A stretch of 64,000 nucleotides of DNA from Cladosporium halotolerans (Eukaryota), in contig NW_027191485.1 in assembly GCF_011745625.1 (NCBI RefSeq), forward strand, positions 62,001 to 126,000. Direction: 5' to 3'. Every line of letters starts with the position of its first letter. The stretch's first letter is position 1. Of this stretch, positions 3,801 through 64,000 are shown in pieces. Made by a program: the position numbers and the translations under genes. The notes under the pieces are model-generated. The model ran no database searches, was not told where the DNA came from, and saw only the letters and a program-made list of their open reading frames with translations.

Positions 3801-5762
3801 GTGAGAGTGATGCGGCAAATGTGTCAATACCTGGACCGTCCGGAGTACATGCAGCATTTCCGTTTGGAGAACCCGTTTGAAGAGACTTGCATGCCAGAGT
3901 ATACACGTGTCGGAGATGCCGATATACCACTGGCGGCCGTCTTCGAATGCCGAGTACAGGATTTTACTCTCGACGTATTCTCCCCTTACACTTCCTCGGT
4001 AGTGGGCATTGTGAGGCTCAGCCTTGAGCCCTCGTCAGCAGAGGCACCAAGCTCGACGCTGAAATTCAATGTGATCATGCACGAGATGGCTGGATTCTCA
4101 GAACTGGAGGGCAGTAATGTACATGCGCAGCTATTCATTCCTGGCGTGTCAGAAGAGGGTGGCGCCACAACAACATCTCTTATCAGCGACTTCGGCGATG
4201 CTCCCGTACGATTCGAAAGCGTGCACTCGATGAGCTTGCCTCTTTCGGCGCCTCGCGAGTCGAGCCTGCGAGTCAGCATTTTTGCCAAAGTAACATCTAT
4301 GCACCTTGACAAGCTTCTGAGTTGGGATGACATGCGCGATGCATCAGCAAGGCCGAAGCCGCAGCGAAATCACTCACGACTGCCCGAAAGTGAATACTAT
4401 TCTGAGGAACGTCACGATGTCTTCGCGAGGGTGCAGGTCCTTGAGATTGGCGAGGATGGTTCGTACCAGCCTGTGGAGGTGGTACAGAATAACACGCTCG
4501 ACAACGGCGCCTACCAACTGCATCAAGGGCTGCAGCGACGTGTGGTGCTGCATTTGGCGCACAGCTCTGGAGACACCCTTCCATGGGAGCAGGTTACGGA
4601 GTTTCGCGCTGGGCATGTGCATCTTCTGGACAAATCAGGTGCCGTGTCTGATCTCGACAGTGGACAAGCCGACGTTGTCCTGCCACTGGTCTCGCCGCCG
4701 ATCATTCGCACCAACGATGACGGCACGACTCAAGTCAAGATGGTGGGCCAGTGGGACTCCAGCGCACACAACTCGCTACTACTCGACCGTCCTACAGTTG
4801 AGAACTACCGGGTGCAGCTTTCCCTCAAATGGCAGGTATTGTCGCCTCGCACCATCCACCCGATGAAATTCAACCTCGACATCGCCGTCCAAACGCGACC
4901 ACGCACTTGGTTCAGGCAGAACTCCCTCCTCGCCCAGCTGTGGCAAAACACCCGTGTCGTACACTCCTGCACCGCAAACTACTCCATCACCCTGAAGCCC
5001 ACAGCCGCAAAGCGCGCCGGCGACCTCTGGCGAATGGACACGACAGGCGAGTACATCTCAGGCGAGGAAATGCTCAGCGGTTGGGCGCCGCGAGGCATCT
5101 CCCTCATCCGCGACTTCATCGACCTCCGCCGCCGCCAACGCCGCACGGCCGAAATCGAAGCCGCCCGCGGCGTCCTCAGCCTCGGCGCCCTCTCGCCCCC
5201 CTCCCGCCCAACGCCCACCGAACAAACCCAACCGACCGAAACCCAACAAGCCCTGGCCCAGAAATTCCTCTCCCTCTGGCTCACGCCAACCCCCAAATCC
5301 GACTCCCTCCTCCTCCGCTCCAACACCTCCTCTCCCGACCCCACCACCCAGCAGCACCCCACATCCTCCTCCTCCCACTCCCCCGGCGAGCACTCCCCGC
5401 CCCCCGCCCTCGCCGCCCTCGTAACCCACAACCCCAAGGCCCCCACCGTGCTCAAATCCGGCTGGCTGCTCGCGCCCGACGCCGCCGGCGCGCGCTGGAT
5501 CAAGCGCTTCGCCGAGCTGCGCCGGCCCTACCTGCACCTGTACGCCAGCGACGGCGACGAGGTCGCCGCCATCAATTTGACCAACTCGCGCATCGACGCG
5601 GAGCCCCAGGTCGCGCGCCTGCTGCAGCGCGACAAGGTGCGCATGGAGGTGTGGGCCGTGTACGCGGTCAACAAGGCGTGGCTGTTTGCGGCGCGCAGCG
5701 ATCGCGAGAGGGGGGAGTGGATTTGGGCGGTCGACAGGAGTTATGTTCTTGGCGGGGGATGA
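894..5762 (+). CDS. Kinesin-3 (Unc104/KIF1A/UncA-like), 1622 aa, intronless
   Basis: Motor motifs VVVRVRP, YGQTGSGKS (P-loop), NETSSRSH and LVDLAGSE. FHA domain (PHLVNLSDDPLLAECLVY...HIFRFNHP), coiled coils and a C-terminal PH domain (LKSGWLL...ERGEWIWAV). Confidence 0.97.
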   Translation: MSPVSGGGGGNIKVVVRVRPFNSREHARNAKCIVAMKGTQTTLKPPPQDGKNKAVKGAEGPKTFAYDKSYWSFDKKDDSYAGQENLFADLGQPLLDNAFQGYNNCIFAYGQTGSGKSYSMMGYGEEEGVIPRICRDMFDRIDGIQTDNSMKCTVEVSYLEIYNERVRDLLNPSTKGNLKVREHPSTGPYVEDLAKLVVRSFMEIEHLMDEGNKARTVAATNMNETSSRSHAVFTLTLTQKRHDAETNMDTEKVAKISLVDLAGSERATSTGATGARLKEGAEINRSLSTLGRVIAALADASTGKVKGKGSQVPYRDSILTWLLKDSLGGNSLTAMIAAISPADINFEETLSTLRYADSAKRIKNNAVVNEDPNARMIRELKEELAQLRSKLSTGGAIAGEEYSADTPPEKQMVSITSQDGTVKRVSKAEITEQLAQSEKLYEDLNQTWEEKLTKTESIHKEREAALEELGISIEKGFVGMSTPKKMPHLVNLSDDPLLAECLVYNLKPGTTTVGNVESNPAPTEGEGETSSTVDIRLNGSKILHDHCTFENVDGVVTVVPKDGAAIMVNGLRIESPQRLRSGYRVILGDFHIFRFNHPQEAREERAEQGSLLKYSVTAEQLDSPTPQNGHVRTASNFSRAMSEIDGESSPGADSPIPFRGQGRDSDWSFARREAVTALLGPDQKISSLTDDELDVLFEDLQRVRAVRKARPEGRLFDSNGGDEDTDSVTSQQLPLREKYLSNGTLDNFSLDTALTAPSTPQNMEEDEQFKQARSNMQEQLDKQKEEFHQKLTNAEDGNVEITDIRAEKAKMEEELRQAKEQMQKQLADQKAEFAKQLADIRAPPKRRTRSDGRPIFTERDIYLAKHVLDHWRRHRYISMAASALRNASTLKEAQVMSQQMERSVVFQFVVVDLGYTFGSSYDLVLNGVSAEESNDPELEDAVKPCLGVRVVDFKNSVVHLWSLQKLHARVRVMRQMCQYLDRPEYMQHFRLENPFEETCMPEYTRVGDADIPLAAVFECRVQDFTLDVFSPYTSSVVGIVRLSLEPSSAEAPSSTLKFNVIMHEMAGFSELEGSNVHAQLFIPGVSEEGGATTTSLISDFGDAPVRFESVHSMSLPLSAPRESSLRVSIFAKVTSMHLDKLLSWDDMRDASARPKPQRNHSRLPESEYYSEERHDVFARVQVLEIGEDGSYQPVEVVQNNTLDNGAYQLHQGLQRRVVLHLAHSSGDTLPWEQVTEFRAGHVHLLDKSGAVSDLDSGQADVVLPLVSPPIIRTNDDGTTQVKMVGQWDSSAHNSLLLDRPTVENYRVQLSLKWQVLSPRTIHPMKFNLDIAVQTRPRTWFRQNSLLAQLWQNTRVVHSCTANYSITLKPTAAKRAGDLWRMDTTGEYISGEEMLSGWAPRGISLIRDFIDLRRRQRRTAEIEAARGVLSLGALSPPSRPTPTEQTQPTETQQALAQKFLSLWLTPTPKSDSLLLRSNTSSPDPTTQQHPTSSSSHSPGEHSPPPALAALVTHNPKAPTVLKSGWLLAPDAAGARWIKRFAELRRPYLHLYASDGDEVAAINLTNSRIDAEPQVARLLQRDKVRMEVWAVYAVNKAWLFAARSDRERGEWIWAVDRSYVLGGG

Positions 5763-6504
5763 TGGGATTCTTTGGTTGATGGATGGATTGGTTGGTTTTT
5801 TTTTTTTTTTTCTTCTTTCGAGAGCGGGCGGGGCGGGCATGCTTGTTTTCGCTGTGCTGTGCCGTTTGAGCCTTGCTTTTGATTTCTTCTTTTGATTTCT
5901 TTTTCTTGCAGGTCTGAAGACGCGCATACGCGTGCGTCGTCGTCGAAAGATTTAGGTTTTGATACCCACCCCCCAGATCGAAGTATTTATTATCATTTAT
6001 TACTAGGACATCAGCCATTACAAGACCGTGATTGGACATAAAAGTGGTGCCTTGCGTGCAATAGTGGCAGGATGCGTAGCATGTGTAGCTACCTTACGCG
6101 TGTAGCAGCGAGGGTAGGTAATAAGGTACCCATGGCGGAAGCTGATTTCCGGTCGAGAAACCCATTGATGATGACACAAGACGTCTACGGCAAACGTGGC
6201 AGCGTGGGCTCTGGAAATTGGGAAGTCGTGGAGCGGAGCAGGATGCGGAGTCGGAGTCGGAGAAAGAGTGCATTAAATCCACCTGTACCATCCTCGTCCA
6301 TCGGAGAGAAAAGATCGTAGCGACGTCTCGAATTCCTCTTCTCTCATGCCAGTAGTGAATAAAGATCGAAAAAAAAGCTCGCTCTCGCCAGAACGCACTC
6401 AAAAACCATAATAACAGTGACAAATCCCCCCTCCCCACATTCGACTTTTGTATAATAAACCCATTCCCCAAAAACGAAAATCAATCAACCCAAGACCCAG
6501 CCCT

Positions 6505-8660
6505 CTAAGCCGAGTCCGAACTCGACCCCTCGCGCCCGCCCTTCTCGTCCTCCTCCAAAAGCGCCTCCTTACCAGCGCCATTCGCCTGCGCAGCCTTGAC
6601 GGGGCTCAGCGGACCACTGCCGTTGCCCTTCGCGTTGCCGCCGCGGCCCTTCGTGCGCTCGAAGAACGTGCTGACCTCGGAAGACCAGCCGTCCTCGTCG
6701 ACGAGATCCTCCTTGTTCTCCTTCTCCTCCGCGCGCCGCGCCATGGCGGCCTCCCAGTCGCCGCGCATCTCCTCGACGCGCTGCTCGTAGTCGCGCGCCG
6801 CGTCGTAGTGCTTGCCGACGCCGCGCAGGCGCTCCCAGACGCTCAGGTGCTTGGGGTGGATCGCGACGCCGTGGTAGTCGGCCTCGCGGCCGTCGCGGAT
6901 GTAGGCCCAGCGGCGCTCCTGCTCCTTCAGGTCGAGGCCGGTGGTGTCAGGGAGGAAGAGCCAGGTCAGCAGGGCGCCGGCGAGGCCGAACCAGGGGACG
7001 ACGAGGAAGCGGGTGGGGACGTCGATGTAGTTGTACAGGACGGCGGCGAGGAGGGCGCCGAGCTTGCCGGCGGCGGCGGAGAAGCCGTGGGCCGTGGCGC
7101 GGATGGGGGTGGGGAAGACCTCGGCGGCGGCGATGAAGGTGACGCTGTTGGGGCCGAATTGGTTGAAGAAGGAGGAGAGGAAGTACATGGCCATGAAGGA
7201 GTTGATGCCGGCGCCCTCGGCGTAGTATTCGTAGTTGAAGGCGGGGATGACGAAGAGGATGAAGTCGAGCAGGAAGCCGATGATCTGCATCCACTTGCGG
7301 CCGTAGAGCTTGTTGTCGATCATGAAGGAGGCCAGGTAGTAGCCGCAGAGGGCGACACCGACGTTGACCAGGTTCCAGAGCCAGTTGGTCATGACGGACT
7401 GGCTGCCAGGGTTGAGCACGGAGATGAACTGGGCCTGGAAGAGCTTGTTGCCGTAGAAGAAGACGTCGTTGGCAAACCACGCGCCGGCGGTGGCGATGAG
7501 ACGGGGTCCGAAGTAGCCGAGGGTCAGCTTGAGGGACTGGACGTCGTAGCCGGTGACGTGCTGCTTCTTCTTCGCGATGGCGAGCTGCTTAGAGGCAGAC
7601 TTCATCTTGTAGGTACGGAAGTAGACGAGCCAGAGAGTGCCGACGGCCGGGATGGCGAACGACACACGGTAAGTCCATTGCACGGAGACCTTGGAGTAGG
7701 GTGGGTTTCCACTGCCGGAGTGGAAGATGAGAAGCAGCAGGATGAGGATGACCTGGTTGAGGAACTGACCCCAGCCCTGCATCAGGAAAGCGGAAGTGAC
7801 CTTGCGGCCACGGTGGAGACGGTCATCGCGGGTGGAGACCTTTCCAGACCCGACTGCGTTCTCCATACCGGAGGTGGCAGTCATGGGGTACTCGCCACCG
7901 ACACCGATGCCGTAGAAGAACAGGGACCAGACGTAGCAGATGACCCAGCCGTCTGAAAATAAGTTAGTCAATGTTCACCGCTTCAACCAAGATCGATCGA
8001 CTTACTCAGAGTGACACCCCAAGCGGCAGTAAGCATGAGAAGACCGATGAACATGATGGTGGCATCCTGGATCAGACCGAAACGACGGCCCATCCAGTCA
8101 CCGACGATACCGACGAGGATTTGACCAACAATGATACCGACGATTTCCAGATATTCGATAGACTGGAGCCAAGTCTCGTTGCAGACGGTGTGAGAGTCCC
8201 AGCAGCCGGGGAAAGCAGATGCAAGTAGAGGCTTGACGTTGCCGATGGAGAAGAGTACGTAACTGAAGGAACGTTAGTATCTGGGACGAAAAACGCAATT
8301 GCGAGATCAATCGTACCCTTCGAGAAGCAGACCGGCACCAGGAATGACCATGTTGCGCATGTAGTAACCAATAGGGCTGAGAGGGTCATTCTTGATCATG
8401 CGGCCGATGGAAGAGAGCTCCTTCTTGGCCTCCTGAGAGTCAACCTTGTTGACGAACTTCAGACGGCGCCAGAGGGGCATGTCGGCCCAGTAGGTGCCGG
8501 TCTCGTCGTAGCTGTCGTCGGGCAGGAGGAGCGACCTGAAGACGTCGGACTCGCTCTTGTTCATGTCCATCATGATGTCGGCGGTGGCGACGTGCTGGCC
8601 GCCCATGTTGGGGCCGTGAGGGGCGGCAATGCCATAGTCACGCATGGAGCTGTCGGCCAT
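6505..8660 (-). CDS. MFS phosphate/organophosphate:H+ symporter (Pho84/Git1-related PHS family), ~682 aa, 3 exons
   Basis: Exons 8660-8317, 8262-8006 and 7952-6505. The GT..CTAAC..AG introns at 8263-8316 and 7953-8005 restore the frame. Motifs GDWMGRR, GIGVGGEYPMTAT, MQGWGQ, NQFGPNSVTF and EVFPTPIRATAHGFSAAAGKLGA, with multiple TM segments. Confidence 0.9.
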
Positions 8661-8766
8661 GGCTGCTATGCTGTGGTGCTCGACGATGTCGAGGCTTGGA
8701 TGAAGTGAGGTGGTGCTAGGGCTCGCCTAGGGAGCAAGAGGAAGGCGATAGAGGGTCGATCACAGG

Positions 8767-8776
8767 CCTTATAAAA
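8767..8776 (-). promoter_or_regulatory. Putative TATA box of the transporter gene
   Basis: TTTTATAAGG on the minus strand, ~110 nt upstream of the ATG at 8660, in otherwise GC-rich DNA. Confidence 0.45.
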
Positions 8777-11666
8777 GAAGCTCACGACAAGCTTCGTAGT
8801 CGGGCTCGGCGGCGCCTTGCTCGGTGCGAGATGATGTAGCCCTACGGGCTAGGGGTGGGAGAGGGGTGGGAGTTGAGATTGAGTGCGGTGCAGAATCGCG
8901 TGTTCGCCGCGTGTGGCAGCGGCACGTTGTGCAGCAAAAGCTCGTGAGTGGCCGAGGAGCAGGGCTTCAGTGCGCAAGGATCCGGAGTCGATTAGGTCGA
9001 CGGTTAGCACGCGGATGTTTCGGCCGCCGTCTGATCGCGTGGCGTTGCGATCTTGCTTGGCTGGTCGATAGGCGATGCTTGTTTCTGACGTCTGCGGATG
9101 TAATGGTATGCAGAGGGAAGAATGCTGCTGGTGAAGGCGCCCGTGGGAGAGGCGAGGTGCTTCTGAAAAATGAGCAGGGCCGCAATGATGAAAGGTGGGA
9201 GGCGGGCCGTTTTCTGCTATGGCCAACGTGTGGAGTAGGTGGGATTGAGTTTCAACGGAAGCCTCTGACAGTGCCAGTGGACGCAGCTGCCGCACGCCGC
9301 GCCCAGACGCCTGCGACGAATGACTAGCAGCAGGTGGCAGCGACGACGCCGAACCCTGTATGGCGTGGCATCGTTTTTTCGTCGTCGCTGAAGATCCGTC
9401 GGCGGACCAGGGTGCCGCAGTGCTGCCGCCGCCGCGAGAGCGATCTCGACGCCCGGGGACGTCTGTGCCTCTGGCATCGCCGAGACAGCGAGCATCTCCA
9501 TGTCATGTCGCGGGCAGCCACGGAGGCATAGGCACGGCAGGCGGAGAGATGCCCTCGCCCAGCATGCACAAGAGGCCGACAGCCGGGCTTGGAGGCGACA
9601 AGCATCGCGATGTGCGGGCTTCGCTGTTCTTCGCGCGCCCGCAAGCCCCGATGGCAAACGCCCGCACGCCAACAAGCCAGCAAGGCGTGTCGTCTGGGAC
9701 TGAGAAAACGTGCTGCAATGAGACACTTTAATTGGCTCGAGAACCAAGGCCCTCTGTGCTAAAAAACTAGTAAACGCAGAGCGCGGCTCTCAGCATGCAG
9801 GGCGCAGCTCCTCCGCAAGCCCGCGCCCATCGCTCGTCTGGCCCGCGGCAAGCGGCGGAGCAGGGCGTGGAGCCCGGTCACGCCGGTACAGACACCACGG
9901 ACGACCGATCACCTCGCCCAGACACCCTCCGATGCTGCCGCCCAGCGTCGCACGAGCACGTGAAAGATGGCCCGAGATTGTCAAGAGCCGTCCTGCAATT
10001 ACAGCGTCCGCCAGTGGTATACCAGCCGCGTTGACCAGTGAGAGCCATCCAGCGAGCCAGCAAGAAGAAAAAAACCCTGCATAAACGACAACGACGCCGC
10101 CACCAACGCCCTGGCGCTCGCCTACAAAGCTTGGCCTCCTCTTGACCGCCACGGCGGGCAGCGTCGCGTGCCCAGCTGCCCAAAGCAGCCGCCGAAGAGT
10201 CGCGTGCTCACTTGCCGCAAGCGAGCAGATGCGTTGAGCCGGCTAACTTCGCTCAAAACATCTGTGTGAAGCTGCACGTAAGTACGCGATATGCAGTCCC
10301 GCCGCCGCGAGAACCCACTCTCGTCTCGGAGCCCACTTCTGCGCGCGCGCACGCCCGGGGTAGATCAGGGACTGACTCCAGAGCCGCCCACTCACCGTCG
10401 CCTCCGCGTGCACGTGTGGGCGCCCGTTCTGGCCGTGGCCGGGCCATCCAGGTTCGGAGGGCGCGAGGCCAGATGCGAGGTGGGAAGGGGGACTAGGGAA
10501 GACTTACCTAATCGGCCATGGCGACGTTTCATTTCCAGCTACCTTATGCAGGACAGTGGCCGTTTTGGTGCCTTTTGGTAGGACATGCAGATCGGGGTCG
10601 TGGCTGGGACTGGTTTAGGCTCCGAACCTTGGGCTGGGGCCTCGGTATCTGGGTATATCGGACATTTGAGTGGACATTCTTGTGTCGAAGAGCCGTTGGG
10701 ATGTCCAGCAGTGACATTCCGAGTGGATGCTGGTTTTAGCCAGAAGAGTGCCGGCCGGTATGGCTTGCTCGGGTTGCATTGCCGTGTGTTGTAGATACCT
10801 GCATTCTGCGGCGACGATGTCGGCATTTCATTTGTGTAGTCACTCGCTTGTGACAGCAATGGGCCGTGGTGTGATTGTACATATAGAAGGTTTGGTGGCA
10901 CATGATGTCTCTAAGCTCTGCGGAACGCTTATCCAGTCCAGCATATGCCTCTTTCTTGCTCACAAGAGTACGAACGCCATATCTACCTTCAGCTGCATGT
11001 ACTGGGCTGCTTTTGCAGTAAGCTTGTCGCCTGTTACTTGGGAGGCTCTTCGGCGAAGTCAGATATCGGAATAAGGTAGTCTAGCGGTGATGGTCGAGGG
11101 CTGGACTTGAGAGATGCTCAAGAAACGCCTAATGAGCCCCTTTGCGATCGAATACGGATTCATGTGCTGCCATCCCTGTATAGTAATCAATCGTAGTCTC
11201 ATCAACAGGCGAGTGCGGGGGTGGTAATTCCTTTGCTACTCTGAGTGATGGTCCACAACGCTGGTAGTCCGTCGCATGTGTCGACTTCGATGCCAATCCA
11301 GAATGCGACCTTGAAGCGCTCACACCTCCTCCTCCGAAATCCAGAGAAAGCGATAGAAATCCAACTATACCCCAAGATCATGCATCTCTCTCTAAACAAG
11401 TACAACGCGTACTTGTCCACTTACCACGCGAATCCGCAAATCACAATAGAGTTGCAAGGGTTAGGGTTAGGGCGACACATCCCTCCCGCCCAGCCCAGCC
11501 CAGCCCATCCCATCCCATCCCAAAAGTTCGTGTCACGCCTCCCCGCTCCCGCCACCACCACCCACCTCCAAACCCATACAAACATACGCACACCACCAAA
11601 ACCCACCATCAACCCCAATCAAACACCCCCCTCAACCTCCATCAGAAAAAAAAACACCCCATCAAA

Positions 11667-12188
11667 ATGGCCCGCGGCCCCGAACTCCCCCCCTGGCTCC
11701 GCGCCGTGGCCGTCGCCTACGTCTTCCAGCTGCACATGCGGCCCAAAGACGTCCTGGCGAAACTCCCCATCTCGCGCCAGGCGCTCAGCCAGCTCGTGCA
11801 GAGGACCAAGGAGCGCGCGGGCGAGGGCGCCGAGTTGCCGGCGCTGATGGCGGCTGCGGCTGTGAGGCCGAGGTCGGGGAGGCCGAGGACGAAGGTTAAG
11901 GTCAAGGGGGGGAGGGGGAGGAAGGGGAAGGTGGGGGAGAAGGTGGTGGAGGGTGCGAGTGGGGGAGGAGAGGGTGAGGAGGGAGGGGTGCAGGGTGCTG
12001 ATGGGGAGGGTGGGGAGGTGAGGATGCACGAGGGTGGCGGGCAGGATGTTCTTGTGGATGCGGGGAGGGCGGATGAACGATCGGACGAGCTTGCGCAGAC
12101 TGGCGGGCGGGATGTTTCTATGATGGGCGGAGAGAGAGCGGATGAAAGACCGCACGAGGTTGCGCGAACGGAGACGATGCCGTCTTGA
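11667..12188 (+). CDS. Small ORF (173 aa) with Tc1/mariner-like N-terminal HTH and PRSGRPR motif, G/E-rich tail, no DDE domain
   Basis: ATG in good context (caaaATGG). MARGPELPPWLR...ISRQALSQLVQRTKERAG...PRSGRPR resembles the first HTH plus GRPR linker of fungal Tc1-like transposases. Confidence 0.5.
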   Translation: MARGPELPPWLRAVAVAYVFQLHMRPKDVLAKLPISRQALSQLVQRTKERAGEGAELPALMAAAAVRPRSGRPRTKVKVKGGRGRKGKVGEKVVEGASGGGEGEEGGVQGADGEGGEVRMHEGGGQDVLVDAGRADERSDELAQTGGRDVSMMGGERADERPHEVARTETMPS

Positions 12189-12572
12189 GATAGACCTTTG
12201 GGGGGAAAGGGTAGGTTATGTTTTATCTTTTGTGCTTTTGTTCTCAGCTGACAGCGTATAGCGTACAATTTCCTTCAAAAAGTCTAGGCTACTATGCTTC
12301 TGCCGAAAGAAAAGGGTTCGTGCTCTTGGTGGTATGGCCCCAACTTTCTCTGGCTGTAGTATATGACTTTCATTATATTGCCCGGAGTTATATCGAACGG
12401 AAAAAGGAAAAGAGAAGAAAAGGAGGCAGGGCGAAGCTGGTCATCCTGCAACCGCTTCCCCTGCTCCTCATGAATATTCGACACCGTTAAATGCACGCTC
12501 GGCCGTGGCCGGTTGCGATTTCTTAAAAGGAAAGTTCAAGGAGATGGACGTTCTTGTGCCAGGTGGAGGCGT

Positions 12573-13375: not shown

Positions 13376-14913
13376 TGTGATTGAGTTTGGTAGTTGTTTG
13401 AAGATAGGGAAGGAGATGGTGCTGATCAGAAAGGCAGGCGGATGCGCTGGTGTTGATATATAGGGCTGACGGAGGAAGAAAAGGCTGGGGTAAAGACCGT
13501 GTGATGTGATGTGCGTAAGCTGTAGTGGTTGGGACGGCGAGGAAGGGAGGAGTTTTGAGCAACACGAAGGACGACGTCGTTTTCATGGCCATGCCACGCC
13601 ATCATCCGTGGTCCTTGGCTGTGATTTGTTCCTTGCAGTAGACGAAACGCAGGCGTGGCGCTACCGTCTCCGTGCCCATGCTTAGCCCAACGTGCACCCC
13701 GACCCGGCTCCGCAGGCAAATCTAACCCAGCGATCCCTATAATGCGCCACGGGCTCTTCAGACAGTTGAAATGACGGCGGTGGAACGCTTTGGAAGAAAC
13801 GACCAACGCCTTCACGAGAAACGTCTTTTCGCACAGCGTTTCCAGGTCGTTGGAACATACATTCGAGTCGAAAATAGACCAGTGGAGCACCCGATCATCC
13901 CAAAAAAGCAGCGTGCGTATGCACGAGGCTCTGCGATCATAGCCTCCTTCTGACGTCCGCGTCCCTGTCAACCCCTGCCGCGGCGCAGTGATCTCCATCA
14001 CCAAAGGACCTCGCCAGCAATATCAGACCGCGGTCGGCAAGCGCTGACCTCTTACACGGCCTAGCTATACCGCTTGTGCCTTGACCGTTCTAGGCTTTTG
14101 TAATCCCATCTATATCCTACAAGTACGAACGCCACAATTGCTGGACTTCTGAACCTGTCTTTGCGCGACTCAGCCCCTCGGCGTGGTCGAGGAACGGGCA
14201 GGGACGCGCAAGCTGCAACGGCCCTCGCCTGCATAAGGTACCCGCCTGCCCGCCTCTGCCGACGCAGCCACCCGCGTCAGCCCTACGACTGAAGTGAAGC
14301 GACCGAGCCGAGCTGCCTCGTGGCTAGAAGGCCTGAGAACCGCGTCGTGGCCCTGCTAGCTGGGTGTTTACGTGTTGATGGCAGTTGGCACGATCTATTG
14401 TTTCTATGTTTGTGTGCATGTGCCCACTTTTGCTGTTCTGATTTTCGATCCTCACAGCCGACTTCCTGGCAAAGACGTTGCGCGGCTTCCCTTGGCCGCA
14501 CGCCGAACTGCCCAACGGTGCACATCCTCTTCTGGCGGATTCACACAGGTCACATGTTGGCGATCAGGTGTGCCATCGGCTGTCGGAAGCCGTCTTGGCT
14601 TGGCGTGCTCGAGTCTCTAAGACATTGCTGCCTATCGTGACTGTACTTCATATTGCTCATGCGGTTGCATATTCTTAGTAGCCGCTGCGGTGACAGGGAA
14701 CACAGCACAGTAATGCCAGTAAATTCTTGAGGCGCTGGCGCAATTGATGCCGCGCTTTGGTGGATTGATGTCCCCTGCACAAATCCTCTAGGCTGGACCG
14801 CGGAAAGTCTAGACTCTTGCCATTATTATTACACCCATGTTGCCACTGCGCCTTGTCACATCGTCCGATCAAGGCGCAAGATCACACGGCCCCCAAGGCG
14901 CTCACTCACACAC

Positions 14914-15684
14914 TCAGTGGTGGTTCAGCCCACCACCCTTGCCCTTCTCCCACCCGTGAATGCTCTCCGCAATATTAGACCAGTACCTCAACCTAATCGC
15001 CTCCTGCGCCGCCGCCTCCCAATCCGCCTTCTCGAAGCACCCCTCGAGCACCTGCACGCTCTCCGCGATCCGCACGTCGTTCTCCGCGCGCACGGCGCTC
15101 AGCCCCTCCTCGTCCTCGGCCTCGTCCACCGCCTCCCGCGCCTCCATCACCTCCATCAGCAGCGCGTTGTCCGTGATCTGCGCGCTCTCGTCTTCCACAT
15201 CGATCCCCTGCTGGAAGAGCAGGTAGCGCGCGCGCCGCAGCGGGTCTAGCAGCGTCTTGTAGGCTTCGTTGATCCGCGCGCTCAGCGCTTCCGCTTGGCG
15301 CTGCTTGTCGGCGCTCGCGCGGTCGGGGTGCGCTTGTGCTTGGAGCTGGATGAACTCTTTGCGGAGCTGTTTGAGGTCGGGCGTGAAGGGCGAGTTGGGT
15401 GGGGGGCCGGAGGGGAAGGTGTCGGGGAAGAGATCGTAGTATGTTTGGGGCAGGACGGTTTCTTGAGATGTCGGTTGGGATCCGGCGTCTTGACGGCGGA
15501 GAGGGGCGGTGGAGAAGGTTCTTGTCGTAAAGACAGGCTGGAGCGGAAGTCTCGCTGGTGTCCGGGTGAATGTGTTGCGGCAGCTGGCGCAGACGTAGGG
15601 TGCTCGCGAGGTCTGGAATTTTGAGACTTCCTTGAGTCCACTGCGCAGGGCGCGTCCGGCGGTTTGCGGAACGCTGGGTCGCAT
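14914..15684 (-). CDS. JAC1: Mitochondrial J-type co-chaperone Jac1/HscB (Fe-S cluster biogenesis), 256 aa
   Basis: Arg/Ser/Thr-rich presequence. J-domain with AHPD and INEAYKTLLDPLRRARYLL, and an HscB C-terminal domain (LLMEVMEARE...IRLRYW). Confidence 0.93.
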   Translation of the reverse strand: MRPSVPQTAGRALRSGLKEVSKFQTSRAPYVCASCRNTFTRTPARLPLQPVFTTRTFSTAPLRRQDAGSQPTSQETVLPQTYYDLFPDTFPSGPPPNSPFTPDLKQLRKEFIQLQAQAHPDRASADKQRQAEALSARINEAYKTLLDPLRRARYLLFQQGIDVEDESAQITDNALLMEVMEAREAVDEAEDEEGLSAVRAENDVRIAESVQVLEGCFEKADWEAAAQEAIRLRYWSNIAESIHGWEKGKGGGLNHH

Positions 15685-35223: not shown

Positions 35224-35659
35224 ATGGGATGCCAATGATTGGACGCTGTTGGATGACGTGATGATTGGGATGCGGTCGTATATAGCGTAGACAACATGAC
35301 ATGAAGTTCACGTTCTTTCCATGCACGGATCGAGGAGGTGATACATGGCGGCTCAACTTGGAATGGGTCTGTTCACCATCACCACTCCCTCGGAGCTTCA
35401 CGTAGCGCCTTGCAAGGCCTTATGACACCTTTCGGGGTTAACATCGTGGGATTCCGTTCTGTTCTGTCCTAATCACTGCACGGTCCCTTTCCAAACTCCG
35501 CTTTTCGCATCATCACTCGTTATTATTACACAAACACCTTATTCACTTTCCTGCCGAGGCTCAACCAAGAAGAAAAGGAAAAAGCCACCAAGAAAGAAGC
35601 AAAAGAGGCATTTTCTCACACCTCTAGCGCCATTCGTTCGGACGGCAGGCTCCCCTCAT

Positions 35660-43706: not shown

Positions 43707-44068
43707 GAGGAGAGGAGGGTGATATAGCGAAGCGAAAATGGAGAGGTAGTCTTTTTGACGAGTTGTACACAGCGTCTCATCAAGCGTGGCGCAGCGTATC
43801 GTAGAGCATGTCGTCCGCGGATGCAAGCAAAATCGTAAAAGCAATCACAACGAAGAACAGCGCATGTCTTTCCACCACAATTACTCGTTTCCGCTACCAG
43901 CTCTCATGATCGCCGTTCAAGGGTATATGCACGCTTCATATCGCATCAGACAACCAACCAACCATCCCACCTCCTGCTATCACCACCAATGATCCGTCTC
44001 CAGCCCCAGCCAGCATTACATTACCTCCCCCTTCCCTCTCCTACTCCCCTCTCCACCTCTTCTCCTCC

Positions 44069-48096: not shown

Positions 48097-48403
48097 ATGA
48101 ATGACTTGGGTTTAGATTGACGAGTAAAAAAAAAAAAGGGCGTTTGGGGGAGTCTTTGCCTGTAGAGAAGAGAAGAGAAGACACACGCGCGGCGGAGCGA
48201 TGGATGGTGAAGGAGGTGGAGGGTAAAATGGCTGGGTTGGCCTGATGTAATAATTTACAAGCAATGCTGTGCATGCAACGCATCCATGCTGTCATTTCTG
48301 TTCGTGTAACGTTAATCTTCGTCTCATGAATGATCGTCCGAATAAGTCGGTCGACGGCCACGGGGAGATCTAACTGATGGAAAACCCGCGTGAATCCCCA
48401 GAT

Positions 48404-48472: not shown

Positions 48473-48923
48473 GCCGAGACTTTGGCCTCTGTATGCCGTC
48501 TCTGTGGTCTCGGACGGTGCGGGACGGGCTCCGCGAGCTCGCCCTCTGATCGCCGCCCTGTTTTGAAACACAACCAGGCCAAAAGCGCAGTCTCGGGTTG
48601 CGGCTGGCATGTGAAAAGCCCACACCCAGTCGTGCACCCAGCCGCGCTCTCGGAGTCCTCAGGGGAGCGACACGAAGGCGTTGGGCCGTCCACTGGTCAG
48701 TCAGTCAATCGGGGGCCTCGCGCCATCTGGTTTCGAGCGGGAGCCCCGCGCCGTGACTGGCAATGTCCGCCGACGAGAGCGGCTCTATGGGCTGGGGGAC
48801 TGGTGAATTCTCGCTGGTGAGTCTCGAGGACCAATGCCGTCCGTCCTGTCTTTGAGAGCTCGCGGTCGAAAAAAAAAAGAATTAAGACATCCGTCCCTGG
48901 AACCAACGCCTCCTCACTCACCA

Positions 48924-57688: not shown

Positions 57689-58639
57689 ATGAAATCCACC
57701 TTCTCAGCCGCCGTCCTGGCTCTGGCCCTCTCAGCCACCGCCGCCCCATTAGGCAAACACTCATCCGCCCACGCCAGCCTCCACTCCCACTCCGGCTCTA
57801 GCAACCACACCACTAACCCCTCCGAATCCTCCTACGGCCCACCAACCTTCTTCGGCGACAACCCATCCACCTACAAAGGCCCACCGCGCGGCAGCCCCGA
57901 ATCGCAGGCATCCTCCGCAACAACCCACCGCACACCCCCCTCCGCCGCAAACGCCACCTCCCCCCACCCGCACCTCTCAACCAGCACCTCCTCCTCCAAC
58001 ACCTCCCTCCCCCTCACCCCCCGCAACGTCCCCGCCCAGCCCTCAACCCCAGACTACAAATCCTACATCTCGCACGACAGCACGACCATGTTCGGCCTGC
58101 AGAGCCCCACCTGCAGCGCCGTAACCCTCATCTTCGCCCGCGGCACGACAGAAAAAGGCAACATGGGGACCTGCGTCGGGCCCTCCCTCGCCTCTGCGCT
58201 CCGCGAGAAAATCCCCTCCCTCGCAGTCCAGGGCGTCGACTACCCCGCGAACTCCGAGGGCAACACCATGTACGGCGCCAGCGGCGGGCCGAACATGGCG
58301 ATGCTGGCGCGCGCGGCGCGCAAGATGTGTCCCGGGACGAAGATCGTGCTCGCGGGGTATTCGCAGGGCGCGAGGTGCATTCACGGGGCGCTGGGGAAGA
58401 GCGAGGAGCCGTTTGACGGCGGGGATGTGGCTGCTGTGGTGGCGTTTGGGGATCCGTTGAATGGGCACAAGGGGGAGGAGTTTGAGGGCGTTCGGAGGGA
58501 GAAGGTGCTGCAGGTTTGCGGCGATAAGGATGGGCGGTGTCAGGATGGGAAGGTGGACTTGGAGGTCGACGGCGGGCATATTAGTTATGGGAGCTCGGCG
58601 GAGGATGTGGCGGAGTGGATTCAGAAGACGGTTGGTTGA
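57689..58639 (+). CDS. Secreted cutinase (CE5), 316 aa, with long S/T/P/H-rich N-terminal extension
   Basis: Signal peptide, CSAVTLIFARGTTE, nucleophile GYSQG, FGDP, CGDKDGRC (catalytic Asp) and GHISY (catalytic His). Confidence 0.93.
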   Translation: MKSTFSAAVLALALSATAAPLGKHSSAHASLHSHSGSSNHTTNPSESSYGPPTFFGDNPSTYKGPPRGSPESQASSATTHRTPPSAANATSPHPHLSTSTSSSNTSLPLTPRNVPAQPSTPDYKSYISHDSTTMFGLQSPTCSAVTLIFARGTTEKGNMGTCVGPSLASALREKIPSLAVQGVDYPANSEGNTMYGASGGPNMAMLARAARKMCPGTKIVLAGYSQGARCIHGALGKSEEPFDGGDVAAVVAFGDPLNGHKGEEFEGVRREKVLQVCGDKDGRCQDGKVDLEVDGGHISYGSSAEDVAEWIQKTVG

Positions 58640-58959
58640 TTGGTTGGAAAGGGGGAGAAGGGATTGATTGCTTCGTCAGTGCTGGATGCTGCGAATGTAT
58701 GGTCGTCTGCCGCTGAATTTATGACTCTCTTACCTAGCATGATGAACAGTTACCACATCACCCGAATGACACTCAATCATGCGCAAGCCAAAAAGGTTAC
58801 TATTGCTCAAGGATATACAACAGAATGTGCGAAGCCCCCAAAGATAAAAGAAAAACAAGCTAGCTGTATGTCATCTATCGTGAAACTCGTCTCTCGCATG
58901 GCCCTCCGCCCCACCACACGCCACCAACAGCCCATTAATTACAAGGCCACCCCAACCCT

Positions 58960-61900
58960 CTACTCCGCCAACACCATCCTCAACATAGCAGTGAAATGCT
59001 CCCCCAACTTCGGCAACTCCACAATCGCCGGCTTGACCGGCTCGCCCGCCGACCTCTTCAACAAATCCCTCTGCCTGCCTCTCCTCTTGCGCTCCGCCTC
59101 AATCGGATCCCCTCCATCATCGTCCGCCTCGCTCTCGCTCTCCTCGTCATCCTCGTCCGCGAGATCCAGATCCTGCAAGTCCATCGCGTTCAGCCCGAAA
59201 TCGCCCGGCTTGAAAGTCGACGCCAGCCCGCCCATGCCGTTCGCGCCCTCGGCGGCGCCGCCTCCGCCAGACGCCATCTTCTGCCGCGTCTTGTCCTGGT
59301 GCCACTTCTTGCGCGCCATCTGCCAGCGGATGAGGGAGTTGATCTCGCGCACGGCGGCGTCCTTGTCGACGAGCCCGACGCTGAGGGCGCCGGAGAACAG
59401 CGCGTTCATGTCGAGCTTGCCGCCCGCGGGCCCGTTGCGCAGGAAGTCGAGGATGCTCTCGATCCAGTTCATGAGCTTGTCGAAGAGGCCGTTGTCGTGC
59501 AGGTGGACTTCGTGGACGAACTTGTACAGGTCCTCCTCGTGGCGCGCGCACAGGTCGATGAAGGACTGCACGGTCTGGTTGGGGTCCGCGCTGACGTCCT
59601 GGCGCTGGGCGCGCTCGATGGTCTGGATGGCGTCGTCGACGAAGCGCGCGAAGTCCGTCACGCTGCTGTAGACGTTGGCGCTCTTGTAGACGCGCACGAG
59701 GGGCTCGTAGAAGATGGTGAAGAGGTCGCGGAAGAGGTGGAGCGTGGTTGGCTCTTCGATCATCTCGAGCATCATTTCTTTGTCGCGCTTGCGGGTGTAG
59801 AGCTTGAGGAGTTGTTTGAGGCGCGCGAAGAGCTCGGCGCCCTGCCGCATGGACTCGTCGATGTGCTCGACGGCGTTTTCCCAGGCGACGTAGGCGTTGA
59901 AGATCTGCGCGATGTGGTCGTTTGAGAGCTGTGGTTGGAGCTCCTCGGTTTGCATGATCTTGACCAGCAAGTCCACTTGGTCGGCTTCCGCTTCCTGTTT
60001 GATTGCGTTCTTTTGAGTTTCGTCCGAGTACGTGAAGTTCTTGATCTTCTCGAAGTAGAGGTTCTCCTCGATCTTTGGGAGTAGGGAGTCAATGGAGCGC
60101 TGTATACTCCGTACACCATCGCCAATCGCAAAGCCAAACATGCGCTGGAGTAAGCTCTTCGCGCCGAGCGGTTGTGCCATGAAGAGGTCCAGAACACCTT
60201 TCATCACCGCTGCAGGATTGGTAAATCGAATGACCTGCTTCAGAGCCGTATACGGCACCAAGCCATGTATCCTCTTCAACTGCGCAAAAAGCTCAGGGCT
60301 GTTGTCCTCGGCAAGGAAAAGGTGGTACAACGTGGCGGCCACTTCAATGCGAAGCCATTCGCAGACCTTTTGGTACTCAGGCGCCAGCTCGGAAATACTG
60401 TTCTTGACCTTGACCTCGGCGAACAGGTTTCGCAAGCCGTTCTTCTCAATCACCGTCCTCCTGAAGCTCTCCATGTGCACGTCGAGCTCCTTGGCGCGCT
60501 GGCTGGCGATTTCGAAAAACCTCCGCTGCTCCTCCATCCGCCTCTCGTCCATCTCTTTTCGCCGTGCGATGTCGTCCAATTCTTCGCTGGTTAGCTTTGT
60601 CGGATCCGCTGTTAAGAAGTCCGTCATGGCTCTGCTGTGAGCGATGTTCTCGTTCTGAAGGAAATTACGAAGGAAAGCTCTGAGTGATACTCGTTGGTCT
60701 TCACGAGGGAGTGTGTGTGCCGAAGTAGGCGAGCCGGAGCGTGGTGTGGCTGCAGTCGCAAGATTCGAAGAAGAATCCATGCTAGGGCGAGGCGATGCGC
60801 TGCTGGGAGTGAGCGACGGGGCGCGCTTGTGGTTAGGCGTGGCGCTGCCTCCTCCGGTCCAGGATGAGAGGTACGAGCGGAATCCTCCTGATGAAGCCTC
60901 TTGGGCCTGCTCTGGAGGCGCGAGACTGGCAGCCGTCGTAGACATTGAAGACATACTTGAAGCGTCATCATCGTCCGCGCTTGTGAACATCGACGAGCTC
61001 TTGTTTTTCCTTGGCAAAGGCGGAAGCACTTTTCCGGGCAACTCCTGTCGCAATTTCTTATGCATCCTCACGAAATCACCGAACCGTCTGGCTACGTGGA
61101 TCTCTGGCTTGTCCTTCTGCTTCACCCTCAGCAGAAAGCTGGCATGCTGATGTTTCCTGACGTGCCGTTTCTGTGTGACCGATCGCACGCCTTCCACGTT
61201 GACATCCCAGCCATTGATCTCATTGCCCTCAGGTTGGTTCACGACAAGACCTTGCTCATTTGCTCCGCGGTCCACAACCTCCATCTCGCTAAAGCGGATC
61301 CTCTCCTCATAGCCCGACGCGGTGGGGATTCCGGAAACCATCATCAGCTCGACCAGCTTGGTCGCCTTGATCGCGAGCTTCGACCTCTTCGTCTCTTCTA
61401 GTCTGTCCTCGGAGCCCGAAATATGTTTGTTCGCAAAGCTCTCGAGGAAGATCTGCAGCTTGTCCTGCCAGAACTCCTTCTCCTGCGCCTGGTTGAGGAA
61501 GGGGAATTTGCGCACGAAGTGAACGAAGATGAAGCGCAGCAAAGGCAGCTCCGAGTCCTCGGGCGCGACCTCGCCGGCGTCTGAGAGAAAGGGTGCGCCG
61601 AAGCGGCGCAGCGCAGTGGGGTGCGAAAGCTCGCGGATCTCCCATTGCGTTTGCTGGCTCAGCAGCTCGCGCTTCAGGTAGTGTTCCTGCTTGCCAGTGA
61701 GGACTGAGCCGGGAGGCGGCACGGACATCTTGGAGTTGAAGGAGACGGCGGAGTGTAGTCGCTCGAGCTGCTGCTTGCGCTGGCCGTCTTGGTCGTCGGA
61801 TTCGGGCTGTTCCTCCGGAGCGTCGACAAAGGGCGTGACTGTTTCCATGGTGTCTGTCCGCCTCGGTCGGGTCATCTCTTGCTCCTGCGAGCCTTGCGAC

Positions 61901-62001: not shown

Positions 62002-63201
62002 GGTTGCAGAAGGAGTGGGTGGAGAGCGGCGACGGGCAATGGAGGGAGGCGGCCCCGGGACTACCTATTCGGTGGTGAAGGAGTGTTGGAGGGCTGTGAC
62101 ACAAGACATCCGGGCTGGCGTCTGTCAAGCGCGCCGGTGGTGGGCACGCGTCGATCGGGGCGGTGGTGGAGTCGCGGCGTGCACAGCACCGCGGACGATG
62201 CTTGACGTAAGCCCCGCGACGCCCGCATCCGCCAAGCGCCTCGTCATGCGCGGGCGGTGCGGCAATTTTTTGTAATCTACTACACGGTTTTGATCATATG
62301 GTGGGGAGCATCACGAGGCTAGGAGGTCTATGGCTGTTTGTGCGAGGTGTGAGTGAAGGGCGCTGCCGTCACTGCGAGACAGAGCAGAGCAGCGCGGGCT
62401 GTCGCAGCGAGCCACCGGGCAGCGTCAGCCAGCACCGGCATCACCAGCCTCTCGCCCACGGCCCACCACAGCCAGCAGCGCGCACAGATCTCTCCGCAAA
62501 TCACGCCCCCCTCCTTCTCAGCCCTACTGGGCAACGCCAAGCGCCTTCTCTCGCGCGCGCATCTCCACCCACCGAGGTCACCGTCCTATTGGCGCACGTT
62601 ACGATCCGACCACCAATGTATCGCACGCAAACAGTCTTGACTTCCTCCTCGGTCCGTCTGCCCTGTAAGGCTGCGCGGATAGTTCGGCCGGTCAAGTCAT
62701 CTTGGCCTTGGGCCTGTGCTGGCGCGACGCTTTCTCGCTGCCTGCTGGGCTTGACGCCCGGCTGCCGCGGCCGGAGCGGCAGTGACGGTGTATCTCCGTG
62801 CTGTGTGTTGTGTGTACATGGGCTTGCGAGGCGGTGCTGAGAGCTCGCGGTGCGAAGTCTGTCACGTGCTGGTGGAATCCTGGGCTTGAAGTGCGTGTGA
62901 GTACGTGGACTTCCTGTGGCTGTGGTAGAGCTAGTGGCCCGGGGGGCTTTTCGCATCCGCAACGACAAGCCACCGTAAGGATACAGTCGAAGTTCTAAAT
63001 GCGGAACGTCAAAGAGTCGTGGCTCAGCCATACAATGTGACAGAGGTATCTTCAGCCGACAGACAGCGAGCGGTGTGCCAGGCTTGCCCTGATGACCTCG
63101 CTCCAAATGGCGGGACGCACGTGTGGACCATTGCGCGTGTGTTTCGACCGAGAGAATACTCACAAACGGTAATTTACATCAATCAAGCATCAACTCGTCT
63201 C

Positions 63202-64000
63202 TTACAACCCAACCCCCTTCACCTCCCCCTCGCTCACTCCCCTCACCTGCCCCTCCACTACCTTCCCCTCAATAACCTCCCCACCCCTCCCCAACATCAA
63301 ATGCTCCACATTCACCTTCGGCCCCTTGAACCACTTCCTCGCATCAACCACCCACCAAACCACCGCCCCCAGCATCGGCGCCCCATAACACAGCGCCGTC
63401 CAATTCATACTCGCCGGGTCCAGATTCCGCCCCGTCACGCTCGGCAAGCACAGGATCGGCACCATGAGCGTCACGAACGCGCTGCCCACGGCGCCGATCG
63501 GAATGCTCGCGCGGCCCAGGTTCCAAGGGCCGGGGCGGAACCGGTTGCCGACGAAGAAGACGCGGATGACGATCGGGATCGTGAAGGCGACGAAGGCGGC
63601 GCACGCGCCGATGCTGAAGATCGCCCCGATCGCCAGCTCGCCGCCGAAGATGAGCAGCAGGCACAGAGTGCCGACCAGGCTGTTGAGCCAGACGGCGTTG
63701 ACGGGCGTGCGCGTGTAGGTGTTGACGTGCGACCAGATGCGGGAGAGGGGGAAGACGTCGTCGCGGGCGTAGGCCTGGGAGAGGAGGTAAGCTTGGGGAT
63801 CTGAGAGGGTGGAAGGGATGGAGTGGAGGCTTACGAATGTCACGCGCGACGCGGCGATCATGCAGCCCTGGCCCATGGCGAAGCCCGCGATGATGGTGAG
63901 GGAGAGCACGGCGATGACGATCTTCTGCGGCAGGATGTCGTTGAGGTAGGCCGCGAAGGGCTGGCCCAGGTCGCTCTCGAGCACCGCCGTGATGTCCACG
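63202..64000 (-). CDS. APC-family amino acid/GABA permease (UGA4/TPO5/HNM1-like), 3' part (runs off window end)
   Basis: SRVTF|AYARDDVFP spans intron 63775-63834; TPVNAVW, FRPGPWNLG, MNWT and ARKWFKGP. Confidence 0.9.
   Translation of the reverse strand, partial: VDITAVLESDLGQPFAAYLNDILPQKIVIAVLSLTIIAGFAMGQGCMIAASRVTFVSLHSIPSTLSDPQAYLLSQAYARDDVFPLSRIWSHVNTYTRTPVNAVWLNSLVGTLCLLLIFGGELAIGAIFSIGACAAFVAFTIPIVIRVFFVGNRFRPGPWNLGRASIPIGAVGSAFVTLMVPILCLPSVTGRNLDPASMNWTALCYGAPMLGAVVWWVVDARKWFKGPKVNVEHLMLGRGGEVIEGKVVEGQVRGVSEGEVKGVGL

What the first reader, a model, noticed from the sequence alone, without database searches (positions are those of the whole stretch)
4850..64000. Recurrent bipolar strand-skew domains (C/A-rich, then CG core, then G/T-rich) over gene 3' ends
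Seen: about a dozen ~0.6-1 kb segments where the + strand goes from strongly C/A-rich, through a very GC/CG-rich centre, to strongly G/T-rich. Approximate spans are 4850-5800, 6420-7350, 11480-12230, 14880-15520, 34450-35280, 35500-36320, 42650-43560, 43940-44600, 44640-45300, 47270-48240, 48890-49620, 57700-58680, 58880-59960 and 63200-64000. The pattern reads the same on either strand, so it does not depend on gene orientation. Centres are typically a few hundred bp inside stop codons. Both partners of several convergent pairs carry one (kinesin/transporter, MMS19/F-box, ABP1/acyltransferase, meaB/HK, cutinase/PX). The NLR, CDD1, REX1-like, MTD1 and the two hypothetical genes lack it. Inference: a localised bidirectional mutation or fixation process. 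Candidates are replication origins with G+T-rich leading strands, recombination hotspots with resection and GC-biased conversion, or selected structure such as C-block/G-block mRNA fold-back, G4 or R-loops at terminators. I know of no named element that explains it.
Basis: partly seen in the sequence, partly recalled or inferred. Interest (0 to 1): 0.72.

Follow-up and report, generated by a model that had tools for sequence, protein, structure and literature searches.

The report
Mirror skew peaks near gene ends
In about a third of this fungus's longer genes, silent DNA letters rise to a G+C peak some 250 bases before the stop codon and swap from C-rich to G-rich at the top of that peak, an extreme and mirror-shaped form of a known but unexplained fungal pattern that may be the scar of a local DNA-repair (gene-conversion) hotspot.

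Summary
Real. All 14 spans switch from C/A to G/T at synonymous sites. In 976 kb of the same genome there are 151 switches against 23-33 in codon-shuffled controls; 133 lie in coding sequence, 68 in + and 64 in - genes, mostly 100-400 bp before the stop. At fourfold sites the domain is a G+C peak with an amino/keto step that flips at its top; the arms are near mirror images, ignore dinucleotide context, and are only weakly present in orthologues of close relatives. No fold-back, no origin-like long-range skew. Closest known: the gene-end GC skew of fungi (McLean and Tirosh 2011), which lacks the internal C arm and the GC peak. My best reading is a strand-resolved gene-conversion footprint (0.4); termination-coupled mutation is close behind (0.3). 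Introns gain little G+C, which counts against plain conversion, and no recombination or allele-frequency data could be had. The scan noted this before on other DNA: 16 notes in this genome, several in other fungi.

The parts
4850..5800 (+). Domain at the 3' end of the kinesin-3-type gene (CDS 894-5762); switch about 5540-5610, 155-220 bp before the stop
6420..7350 (-). Domain at the 3' end of the MFS transporter gene (6505-8660); switch about 6845, 339 bp before the stop; convergent with the kinesin
11480..12230 (+). Domain spanning a 173-codon ORF (11667-12188) whose first 75 residues resemble a multicopy HTH family; switch about 11780-11795; filter score 1.16
14880..15520 (-). Domain in the HSC20/HscB gene (14914-15684); switch about 15210, 294 bp before the stop
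34450..35280 (+). Domain at the 3' end of MMS19 (32206-35223); switch about 35000, 223 bp before the stop
35500..36320 (-). [quoted passage not shown]
   Evidence: p 1.6e-2, the weakest of 14
42650..43560 (+). Domain in the ABP1-like gene (41120-43706; last intron 43568-43622); switch about 43097, 610 bp before the stop; left arm partly driven by proline-rich coding
43940..44600 (-). Domain in exon 2 of the acyltransferase gene (44069-44514); switch about 44268; filter score 1.17
44640..45300 (-). Second, weaker domain in exon 1 of the same gene (44641-45124); switch about 44812
   Evidence: below the 0.5 filter threshold
47270..48240 (+). Domain at the 3' end of the six-exon gene 46516-48096; switch about 47720-47780; the intron 47326-47518 in the left arm is itself C/A-rich
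48890..49620 (-). Domain at the 3' end of the hybrid histidine kinase gene (48924-52283); switch about 49147, 222 bp before the stop
57700..58680 (+). Domain over the cutinase gene (57689-58639); switch about 58255, 384 bp before the stop
   Evidence: weaker in 5 orthologues
58880..59960 (-). Domain at the 3' end of the PX/DUF3818 gene (58960-62001); no T at fourfold or C/T sites over codons 721-900, C/T sites 80% T in the last 52 codons; switch about 59250-59325
63200..64000 (-). Domain at the 3' end of an amino-acid permease gene (stop at 63202, gene runs off the window); switch about 63490, 287 bp before the stop

Best explanation
The domains are long-term footprints of a point-source repair bias, most likely gene-conversion (recombination) hotspots that sit about 250 bp inside the 3' end of about a third of genes. 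Shown: two one-sided biases face each other. Left of the centre the top strand gains C and loses T most; right of it the bottom strand does the same (G gained, A lost on top). They overlap for a few hundred bases, which makes the G+C peak, and fade within about 1 kb. Inferred: after a break, resection keeps the top strand on the left and the bottom strand on the right, so heteroduplex flips strand at the break; if mismatches with C on the kept strand (C:A, C:C) are converted less often than T:G and G:G, and repair also favours G:C, C is fixed on the left and G on the right, with G+C highest where breaks are most frequent. The ranking of mismatch repair efficiencies is recalled from yeast work and comes from no call. 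The published fungal 5'-C/3'-G skew would then be, in part, the genome-wide average of such footprints.
For: G+C term peaks (about 2.1 log units) where the amino/keto term flips from about +0.9 to -1.0 in 61 domain genes; 188 unselected genes aligned on the stop show the same (peak 0.98 at 200-300 bp, sign change at about 300 bp). In 95 unselected genes of 2 kb or more the bootstrap intervals of upstream and mirrored downstream terms overlap in 6 of 6 pairs, the sixth only marginally (0.01 versus -0.35). No dependence on neighbouring bases, unlike CpG, RIP or deaminase signatures. Patchy: 61 of 188 genes, bimodal, uneven among contigs (26/48, 18/75, 16/52, 1/13; p 0.0009), correlated between convergent partners with stops under 1 kb apart (rho 0.55, n 77) and fading by 12 kb, unrelated to a crude expression proxy (p 0.24). 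Strength and centre shift between orthologues; absent in one gene of two relatives and in distant relatives. It overrides codon preference and shifts amino acids. Synonymous divergence is not raised (upstream arm 96-109 of 241, body 324-325 of 625). A SPO11-type domain is present and 4 of 9 adjacent pairs among 10 listed strain variants show all four gametes. Precedent: hotspots in exons in Zymoseptoria (PMC5844332, passages), a small recombination peak inside the CDS before the transcript end in Arabidopsis and 3'-biased hotspots in other plants (PMC11414407, passages), strand-aware restoration of recipient G/C in mouse (PMC6715734, passages).
Against: No recombination map, break map or allele-frequency test was possible (one search listed 40 of 1026 variant rows). 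Introns in the upstream arm show the skew (0.65) but little G+C gain (0.22, 694 bases of 15 introns) and the G excess ends about 100 bp after the stop, whereas a DNA-level drive should not see exon borders. Non-domain genes carry a weak copy at the same place, so the anchor is a general gene feature. GC-biased conversion was extremely weak or absent in Zymoseptoria (PMC5844332). The mouse model restores G and C alike, and mismatch type had little effect in a mouse annealing assay (PMC9001825, abstract). Diversity between strains is about the same inside and outside domains (1.8-2.4% versus 2.2-2.4% on four contig pieces). Breaks in yeasts and plants favour nucleosome-poor DNA, not GC-rich exons (passages; general knowledge). 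The four-gamete result rests on three contig sets, one of which (X7) looks mixed.
Confidence: 0.4

Rival explanations
1. Termination-coupled mutation or repair: each transcript leaves an A-to-G (and C-to-T) bias on its non-template strand over its last few hundred bases. The sense transcript makes the G/T tail; an antisense transcript starting at the terminator and ending about 1 kb inside the gene makes the mirrored C/A arm. This extends the mutational hypothesis of McLean and Tirosh.
For: Tight anchoring to 3' ends on both strands; a weak copy in non-domain genes; centre nearer the stop when the convergent gap is longer (rho -0.26, n 66, p 0.035; tandem rho -0.28, n 27, p 0.16), as if tied to the transcript end; skew stops about 100 bp after the stop; extra T on the sense strand downstream.
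Against: Needs antisense transcription about as strong as sense to give the mirror; tandem genes have the same centre distance as convergent ones (median 241 and 260 bp); no link to the expression proxy; single-strand damage should favour C-to-T over A-to-G and lower G+C, not raise it (general knowledge); no antisense RNA was shown (one search held contigs only, which cannot show strand).
Confidence: 0.3
2. Selection on composition at gene ends (polymerase pausing, R-loop or G-quadruplex potential, nucleosome placement, or a loose C-block/G-block RNA fold) keeps a C-rich then G-rich stretch before the stop in a subset of genes.
For: G+C gain is far stronger in exons than in introns or UTRs; introns are rare 250-450 bp before the stop in domain genes (2 of 61 versus 23 of 127, p 0.005, one of six distance bins tested); most of the 30 G4-like motifs of the window fall in domains; slightly lower synonymous divergence in the upstream arm.
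Against: No folding beyond composition in 19 of 19 window genes (z -1.4 to +1.4 against locally shuffled codons, 10 shuffles each); only degenerate inverted repeats; spliced-out introns share the skew; orthologues with the same function differ widely; one of the two strongest domains lies on what looks like a transposon-derived ORF; no shared motif at centres.
Confidence: 0.17
3. Replication origins: each centre is an initiation site and the leading strands become G/T-rich.
For: Polarity is that of an origin (leading strand G- and T-biased, as stated in the introduction of PMC3315797); the arms are mirror images.
Against: Skew returns to baseline within about 1 kb instead of running to a terminus; 133 of 151 centres lie in coding exons; one centre per 6.5 kb; an origin does not explain the G+C peak; no motif.
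Confidence: 0.08
4. By-product of amino-acid composition or gene prediction.
For: Codon-shuffled controls keep 23-33 of 151 peaks; proline-rich and acidic tails add to some arms.
Against: Synonymous sites carry the signal in 14 of 14 spans; gene models match 8 introns seen in a spliced run and 4 of 4 proteins tested are on record letter for letter.
Confidence: 0.02

Closest known systems
Opposite GC skews at the 5' and 3' ends of fungal genes (McLean and Tirosh 2011, PMC3315797; parts 1-3 of 4 read; supplement not read)
   Same: Coding strand C-biased early and G-biased at the stop; fourfold sites, UTRs and amino-acid use affected; present in many but not all genes; cause unknown.
   Different: Here the strongest C bias is internal, 400-500 bp before the stop (fourfold C 0.58 versus 0.31-0.36 mid-gene and 0.38-0.40 at the start in 58 long genes); A/T also flips at synonymous sites; a G+C peak sits on the switch; arms mirror each other. 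The paper describes flat AT skew and a three-line shape with a constant middle.
[quoted passage not shown] 2019, PMC6715734; passages)
   Same: Kilobase-scale, context-independent gain of G+C; outcome depends on the base on the broken (recipient) strand.
   Different: That model treats recipient G and C alike and so gives no C/G flip; here introns gain little G+C and no recombination data exist.
Exonic hotspots in Zymoseptoria (PMC5844332; passages) and hotspots near transcript ends in plants (PMC11414407; passages)
   Same: Hotspots inside coding sequence or at 3' ends, labile between close species.
   Different: The passages seen report no strand skew; Zymoseptoria showed very weak or no GC-biased conversion.
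Bidirectional strand asymmetry around human CpG islands (PMC2817419; search listing only) and skew jumps at replication origins
   Same: Sign change of strand bias at a GC-rich centre.
   Different: Long-range and at promoters or origins; here about 1 kb and inside last exons.

Membership tests
Fungal gene-end GC skew (McLean and Tirosh) | Coding strand C-biased at the 5' end and upstream of it | tested here: met
   First 50 bp upstream of starts C 0.35, G 0.19; fourfold C 0.38-0.40, G 0.25-0.26 in the first 200 bp of long genes; modest
Fungal gene-end GC skew (McLean and Tirosh) | Coding strand G-biased at the stop, extending into the 3' UTR | tested here: met
   Fourfold G 0.44, C 0.28 in the last 100 bp; first 50 bp after the stop G 0.30, C 0.19
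Fungal gene-end GC skew (McLean and Tirosh) | Affects fourfold sites and amino-acid use | tested here: met
Fungal gene-end GC skew (McLean and Tirosh) | Skew rises from 5' to 3' with a constant middle; AT skew flat | tested here: not met
   C bias is deepest 400-500 bp before the stop and A/T flips at synonymous sites
GC-biased gene conversion hotspot | Local, context-independent G+C peak that fades with distance | tested here: met
GC-biased gene conversion hotspot | Non-coding DNA inside the tract gains G+C as synonymous sites do | tested here: inconclusive
   Intron gain 0.22 against about 0.3-1.6 at fourfold sites across the arm, on 15 short and possibly constrained introns; none in UTRs. 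Leans against.
GC-biased gene conversion hotspot | Raised recombination or break rate at the site | not testable with these tools
   No map; only presence of a SPO11-type domain and four-gamete pairs
GC-biased gene conversion hotspot | Derived-allele spectrum shifted towards the favoured base | not testable with these tools
   One search listed 40 of 1026 variant rows from three other strain sets
Replication-origin skew | Upward jump of G/T skew on the top strand | tested here: met
Replication-origin skew | Skew persists over the replicon; centre outside transcribed coding sequence | tested here: not met
   Baseline within about 1 kb; 133 of 151 centres in CDS
Selected mRNA fold-back | Specific complementarity between the arms beyond composition | tested here: not met

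The most novel reading that the evidence does not exclude
Gene conversion in this fungal lineage is biased in a strand-resolved way (C kept on the strand that survives resection), and its hotspots sit about 250 bp inside gene 3' ends. The C-to-G switch would then let break hotspots be mapped to about 100 bp from one genome sequence, would explain the long-unexplained fungal 5'-C/3'-G skew, and would show conversion rewriting protein C-termini.
Probability: 0.3. Interest if true: 0.75.

Novelty: new variant of a known kind. Interest (0 to 1): 0.45.

Why it matters
The fungal gene-end skew has had no settled cause since 2011. This genome shows it in an extreme, focal form that splits into a G+C peak and a strand step with near mirror symmetry, present in a third of genes and absent or weak in orthologues. 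That gives built-in controls and makes the question directly testable with population data: conversion, mutation and selection predict different allele spectra in each arm. It also biases codon-usage, dN/dS and gene-finding estimates near stop codons, where several long shadow ORFs appear.

Tried and rejected
mRNA or DNA fold-back: no excess stability against local codon shuffles in 19 window genes (one gene reached z -3.3 against whole-segment shuffles, which destroy the arms); inverted repeats are degenerate. Translation selection alone: the tail prefers T-ending over C-ending codons and introns share the skew. CpG, RIP or deaminase chemistry: no neighbour dependence, although three DNA methylase matches exist. 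A general exon-end effect: 139 introns far from stops show no G/T rise before donors. A break in the shared terminator with single-strand deamination: right sign for the tail, but it does not give the internal C arm, and tandem genes show no mirrored arm downstream. Orientation of the next gene: 39 of 105 convergent versus 20 of 80 tandem, p 0.08; longer downstream gaps in domain genes not significant (p 0.10 and 0.18). Centre motif: none. Position of the AT-richest stretch after the stop does not track the centre (rho 0.10, n 63). Polarising changes on this lineage failed: it branches outside both relative clades. Polymorphism test failed: variant table cut to 40 rows; the ABP1 rows for run X3 (3 differences in about 910 bp of domain, 15 in about 1550 bp of body) are too few. 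Chromosome-end effect untested: no telomere repeat found. MAT alpha search rang nowhere and says nothing. Skew in the multicopy relatives of the 173-codon ORF was not examined and stays open. PMC11922761 and PMC5638367 (passages) gave no comparable compositional switch; the first reports strand-asymmetric C mutations near human non-crossovers without, in the passages seen, a usable sign.
Full report
Setting. The window is G000:C256:62001-126000 of a 27.9 Mb assembly, a filamentous ascomycete by its gene content and short GT-AG introns. Earlier notes call it Cladosporium-like; I did not verify the genus. I fetched about 960 kb of the genome and analysed four continuous stretches of 976 kb including the window (the small loci L040-L047 were left out of all counts). 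A self-trained gene finder gave 377 genes, 373 complete. Its models reproduce 8 introns seen in a spliced run identical to the window (43567/43623, 44513/44640, 46573/46626, 46719/46773, 46860/46910, 47325/47520, 47910/47969, 50348/50403; one further joint, 52535/52595, lies outside the models), and 4 of 4 predicted proteins tested are on record letter for letter.

Observation. The switches are real. A matched filter finds 13 in the window, covering 12 of the 14 spans, against 0 in 50 base shuffles and 2-6 in 12 shuffles of synonymous codons and non-coding segments; at the stricter threshold 9 against 0-1. In 976 kb there are 151 against 23-33, and 61 against 3-7. All 14 spans differ left and right at synonymous sites. 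In the PX gene no C/T site carries T over codons 661-900 and third positions are almost all G or C over codons 781-900, after which C/T sites turn 80% T. CpG is only mildly over-represented in cores (0.94-1.38 against 1.01), so the core is a G+C peak rather than a CpG island.

Position. Of 151 centres 133 lie in CDS, 18 between genes and none in introns; 68 are in + genes and 64 in - genes. In genes of 1.5 kb or more, 55 of 66 lie within 600 bp of the stop (24% expected), with a mode at 200-300 bp; 7 lie nearer the start. Opposite (G-to-C) switches are 89 of 100 intergenic. In 58 genes of 2.4 kb or more, fourfold C reaches 0.58 at 400-500 bp before the stop, against 0.31-0.36 mid-gene and 0.38-0.40 at the start. 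So the C arm is a feature of the 3' region, not a leftover of the 5' C bias. Internal introns far from stops carry no such pattern (139 introns). By a fixed rule (T under 0.12 in the arm, A under 0.12 in the tail) 61 of 188 testable genes are domain genes and the distribution is bimodal; the other 127 carry a weak copy at the same place. Frequency differs among contigs (26/48, 18/75, 16/52, 1/13). Strength is shared between convergent partners whose stops are under 1 kb apart (rho 0.55, n 77) and weakly over 2-12 kb; orientation itself is not significant (p 0.08).

Anatomy. At fourfold sites, log ratios to the gene body split into a G+C term and an amino/keto term. The first peaks at about 2.1 at the switch and falls to half within about 500 bp upstream and 200-400 bp downstream; the second is about +0.9 upstream and -1.0 downstream; a purine/pyrimidine term stays mostly small. 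The step is partly built in, because centres were called on C/G sites and genes were chosen on T and A, but 188 unselected genes aligned on the stop show the same shape. In 95 unselected genes of 2 kb or more, upstream C matches downstream G (0.47, 0.58), T matches A (-0.54, -0.74), G matches C (-0.13, -0.09), A matches T (-0.40, -0.27), and twofold C/T matches G/A (0.84, 0.94); the last pair is less even (0.01, -0.35). In 25 genes chosen on twofold sites only, the fourfold rows still mirror, with A more depleted than T on the sense strand. The bias does not depend on neighbouring bases and shifts amino acids in the tail (E, G, V up; S, T, P, H down). Introns in the upstream arm are C 0.41, G 0.15 against 0.30, 0.19 in non-domain genes: skew 0.65 but G+C gain only 0.22. 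After the stop the G excess lasts about 100 bp. This weak response of non-coding DNA is the main fact that the best reading does not explain well.

Relatives. Of 26 metagenome loci with a PX orthologue, 18 were run through the gene finder. Close relatives (about 77-85% protein identity) have a weaker domain at the same place in PX and cutinase; one has a G/T tail as strong as the window's; one gene with a strong domain here lacks it in two relatives; one non-domain gene lacks it in all five; distant relatives (about 60-65%) lack it in PX, apart from a partial C arm in L016. The centre shifts between species. The window's lineage branches outside both relative clades, so changes cannot be assigned to it; at sites where both clades have C it shows T in 0 of 88 upstream-arm sites against 19 of 105 body sites, and overall synonymous divergence is not raised (three genes). 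Three other strain sets differ by about 2% inside and outside domains alike. Of 40 listed variant rows (1026 in all) I used 10, dropping rows private to one run, most rows shared by all and one mixed row; 4 of 9 adjacent pairs show four gametes. That suggests recombination, but one run looks mixed. A SPO11-type domain is present.

Mechanism. Shown: two mirror-image one-sided biases towards C on the strand whose 3' end points at the centre, overlapping at a G+C peak, anchored near gene ends, patchy and labile. Inferred: this is the geometry of heteroduplex around a resected break, and the sign is the one expected if T:G and G:G mismatches are converted more readily than C:A and C:C (recalled from yeast work; a library search for support returned one paper that I did not read). 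I give this 0.4. Termination-coupled mutation by sense and antisense transcripts (0.3) explains the anchoring better and the symmetry and G+C gain worse. Selection on composition (0.17) explains the exon bias but not the lability or the intron skew, and specific fold-back is excluded. Origins (0.08) have the right sign and the wrong scale.

Comparison with print. McLean and Tirosh 2011 (PMC3315797; parts 1-3 of 4 read, supplement an old .doc that I did not read and that holds codon-position profiles bearing on this comparison) describe 5' C and 3' G bias across fungi with flat AT skew and a three-line shape. This case shares the end biases but fails the shape test, so it works like, and probably contributes to, that pattern without matching its description. 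Nine library searches showed no paper on a mirror-symmetric G+C peak inside fungal gene ends; the library lacks most subscription papers, so this is weak evidence of absence. Passages were read from PMC6715734, PMC5844332, PMC11414407, PMC11922761 and PMC5638367, and the abstract of PMC9001825; two of these count against the best reading (weak or no GC-biased conversion in Zymoseptoria; little effect of mismatch type in a mouse assay).

Earlier notes. Sixteen notes in this genome fit the word 'skew' and the 8 shown describe the same pattern, filed under McLean and Tirosh; notes on other fungal genomes split between that filing and a hotspot reading. These are unchecked and not independent support.

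Verdict. A real, genome-wide, already noted feature; a new variant of a known and unexplained fungal skew; interest 0.45.

Noticed in passing
window 11667-12188 (+): A 173-codon ORF whose first 75 residues match 11 other places in the genome at 32-45% identity (E 3e-5 or better), mostly in open frames of 250-530 residues and often on short contigs or near contig ends; look-alikes are HTH domains at scores under 0.9 and Pfam gave nothing. It looks like a truncated transposase-derived gene with a G/K/E-rich tail, and it carries one of the two strongest domains.
   Followed up: partly
window 47326-47518: Intron with two donor sites (after 47325 and after 47459) seen in the spliced run X2; an in-frame stop lies inside the longer intron. 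The intron is strongly C/A-rich.
   Followed up: no
window 45560-46460: About 900 bp of very C-rich top strand upstream of the gene at 46516, facing the G-rich 5' region of the divergent acyltransferase gene: a strong G-to-C switch at about 45580.
   Followed up: no
window 8700-11200: Long, GC-rich intergenic region upstream of the transporter gene with G-rich, C/A-rich and G/T-rich stretches and no gene in the final models.
   Followed up: no
window 48274-48923: About 650 bp between two convergent stops, holding a (CTTC)n microsatellite near 48400-48470, is replaced by 570-590 other letters in all three other strain sets.
   Followed up: no
window 44180-44189 and 44444-44446: Clusters of adjacent differences shared by other strains inside the acyltransferase domain (five in 10 bp; three in 3 bp), possibly multi-base mutation or short conversion tracts.
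   Followed up: no
G000 sample, domain genes: Introns are rare 250-450 bp before the stop in domain genes (2 of 61 versus 23 of 127) and gene bodies are slightly more GC-rich at synonymous sites (0.66 versus 0.61, p 0.003).
   Followed up: partly
C100 and C1 stretches of G000: 18 of 151 switches lie outside predicted genes, two of them strong (scores 1.03 and 0.84); they may be missed genes, UTR introns or non-coding transcripts.
   Followed up: partly
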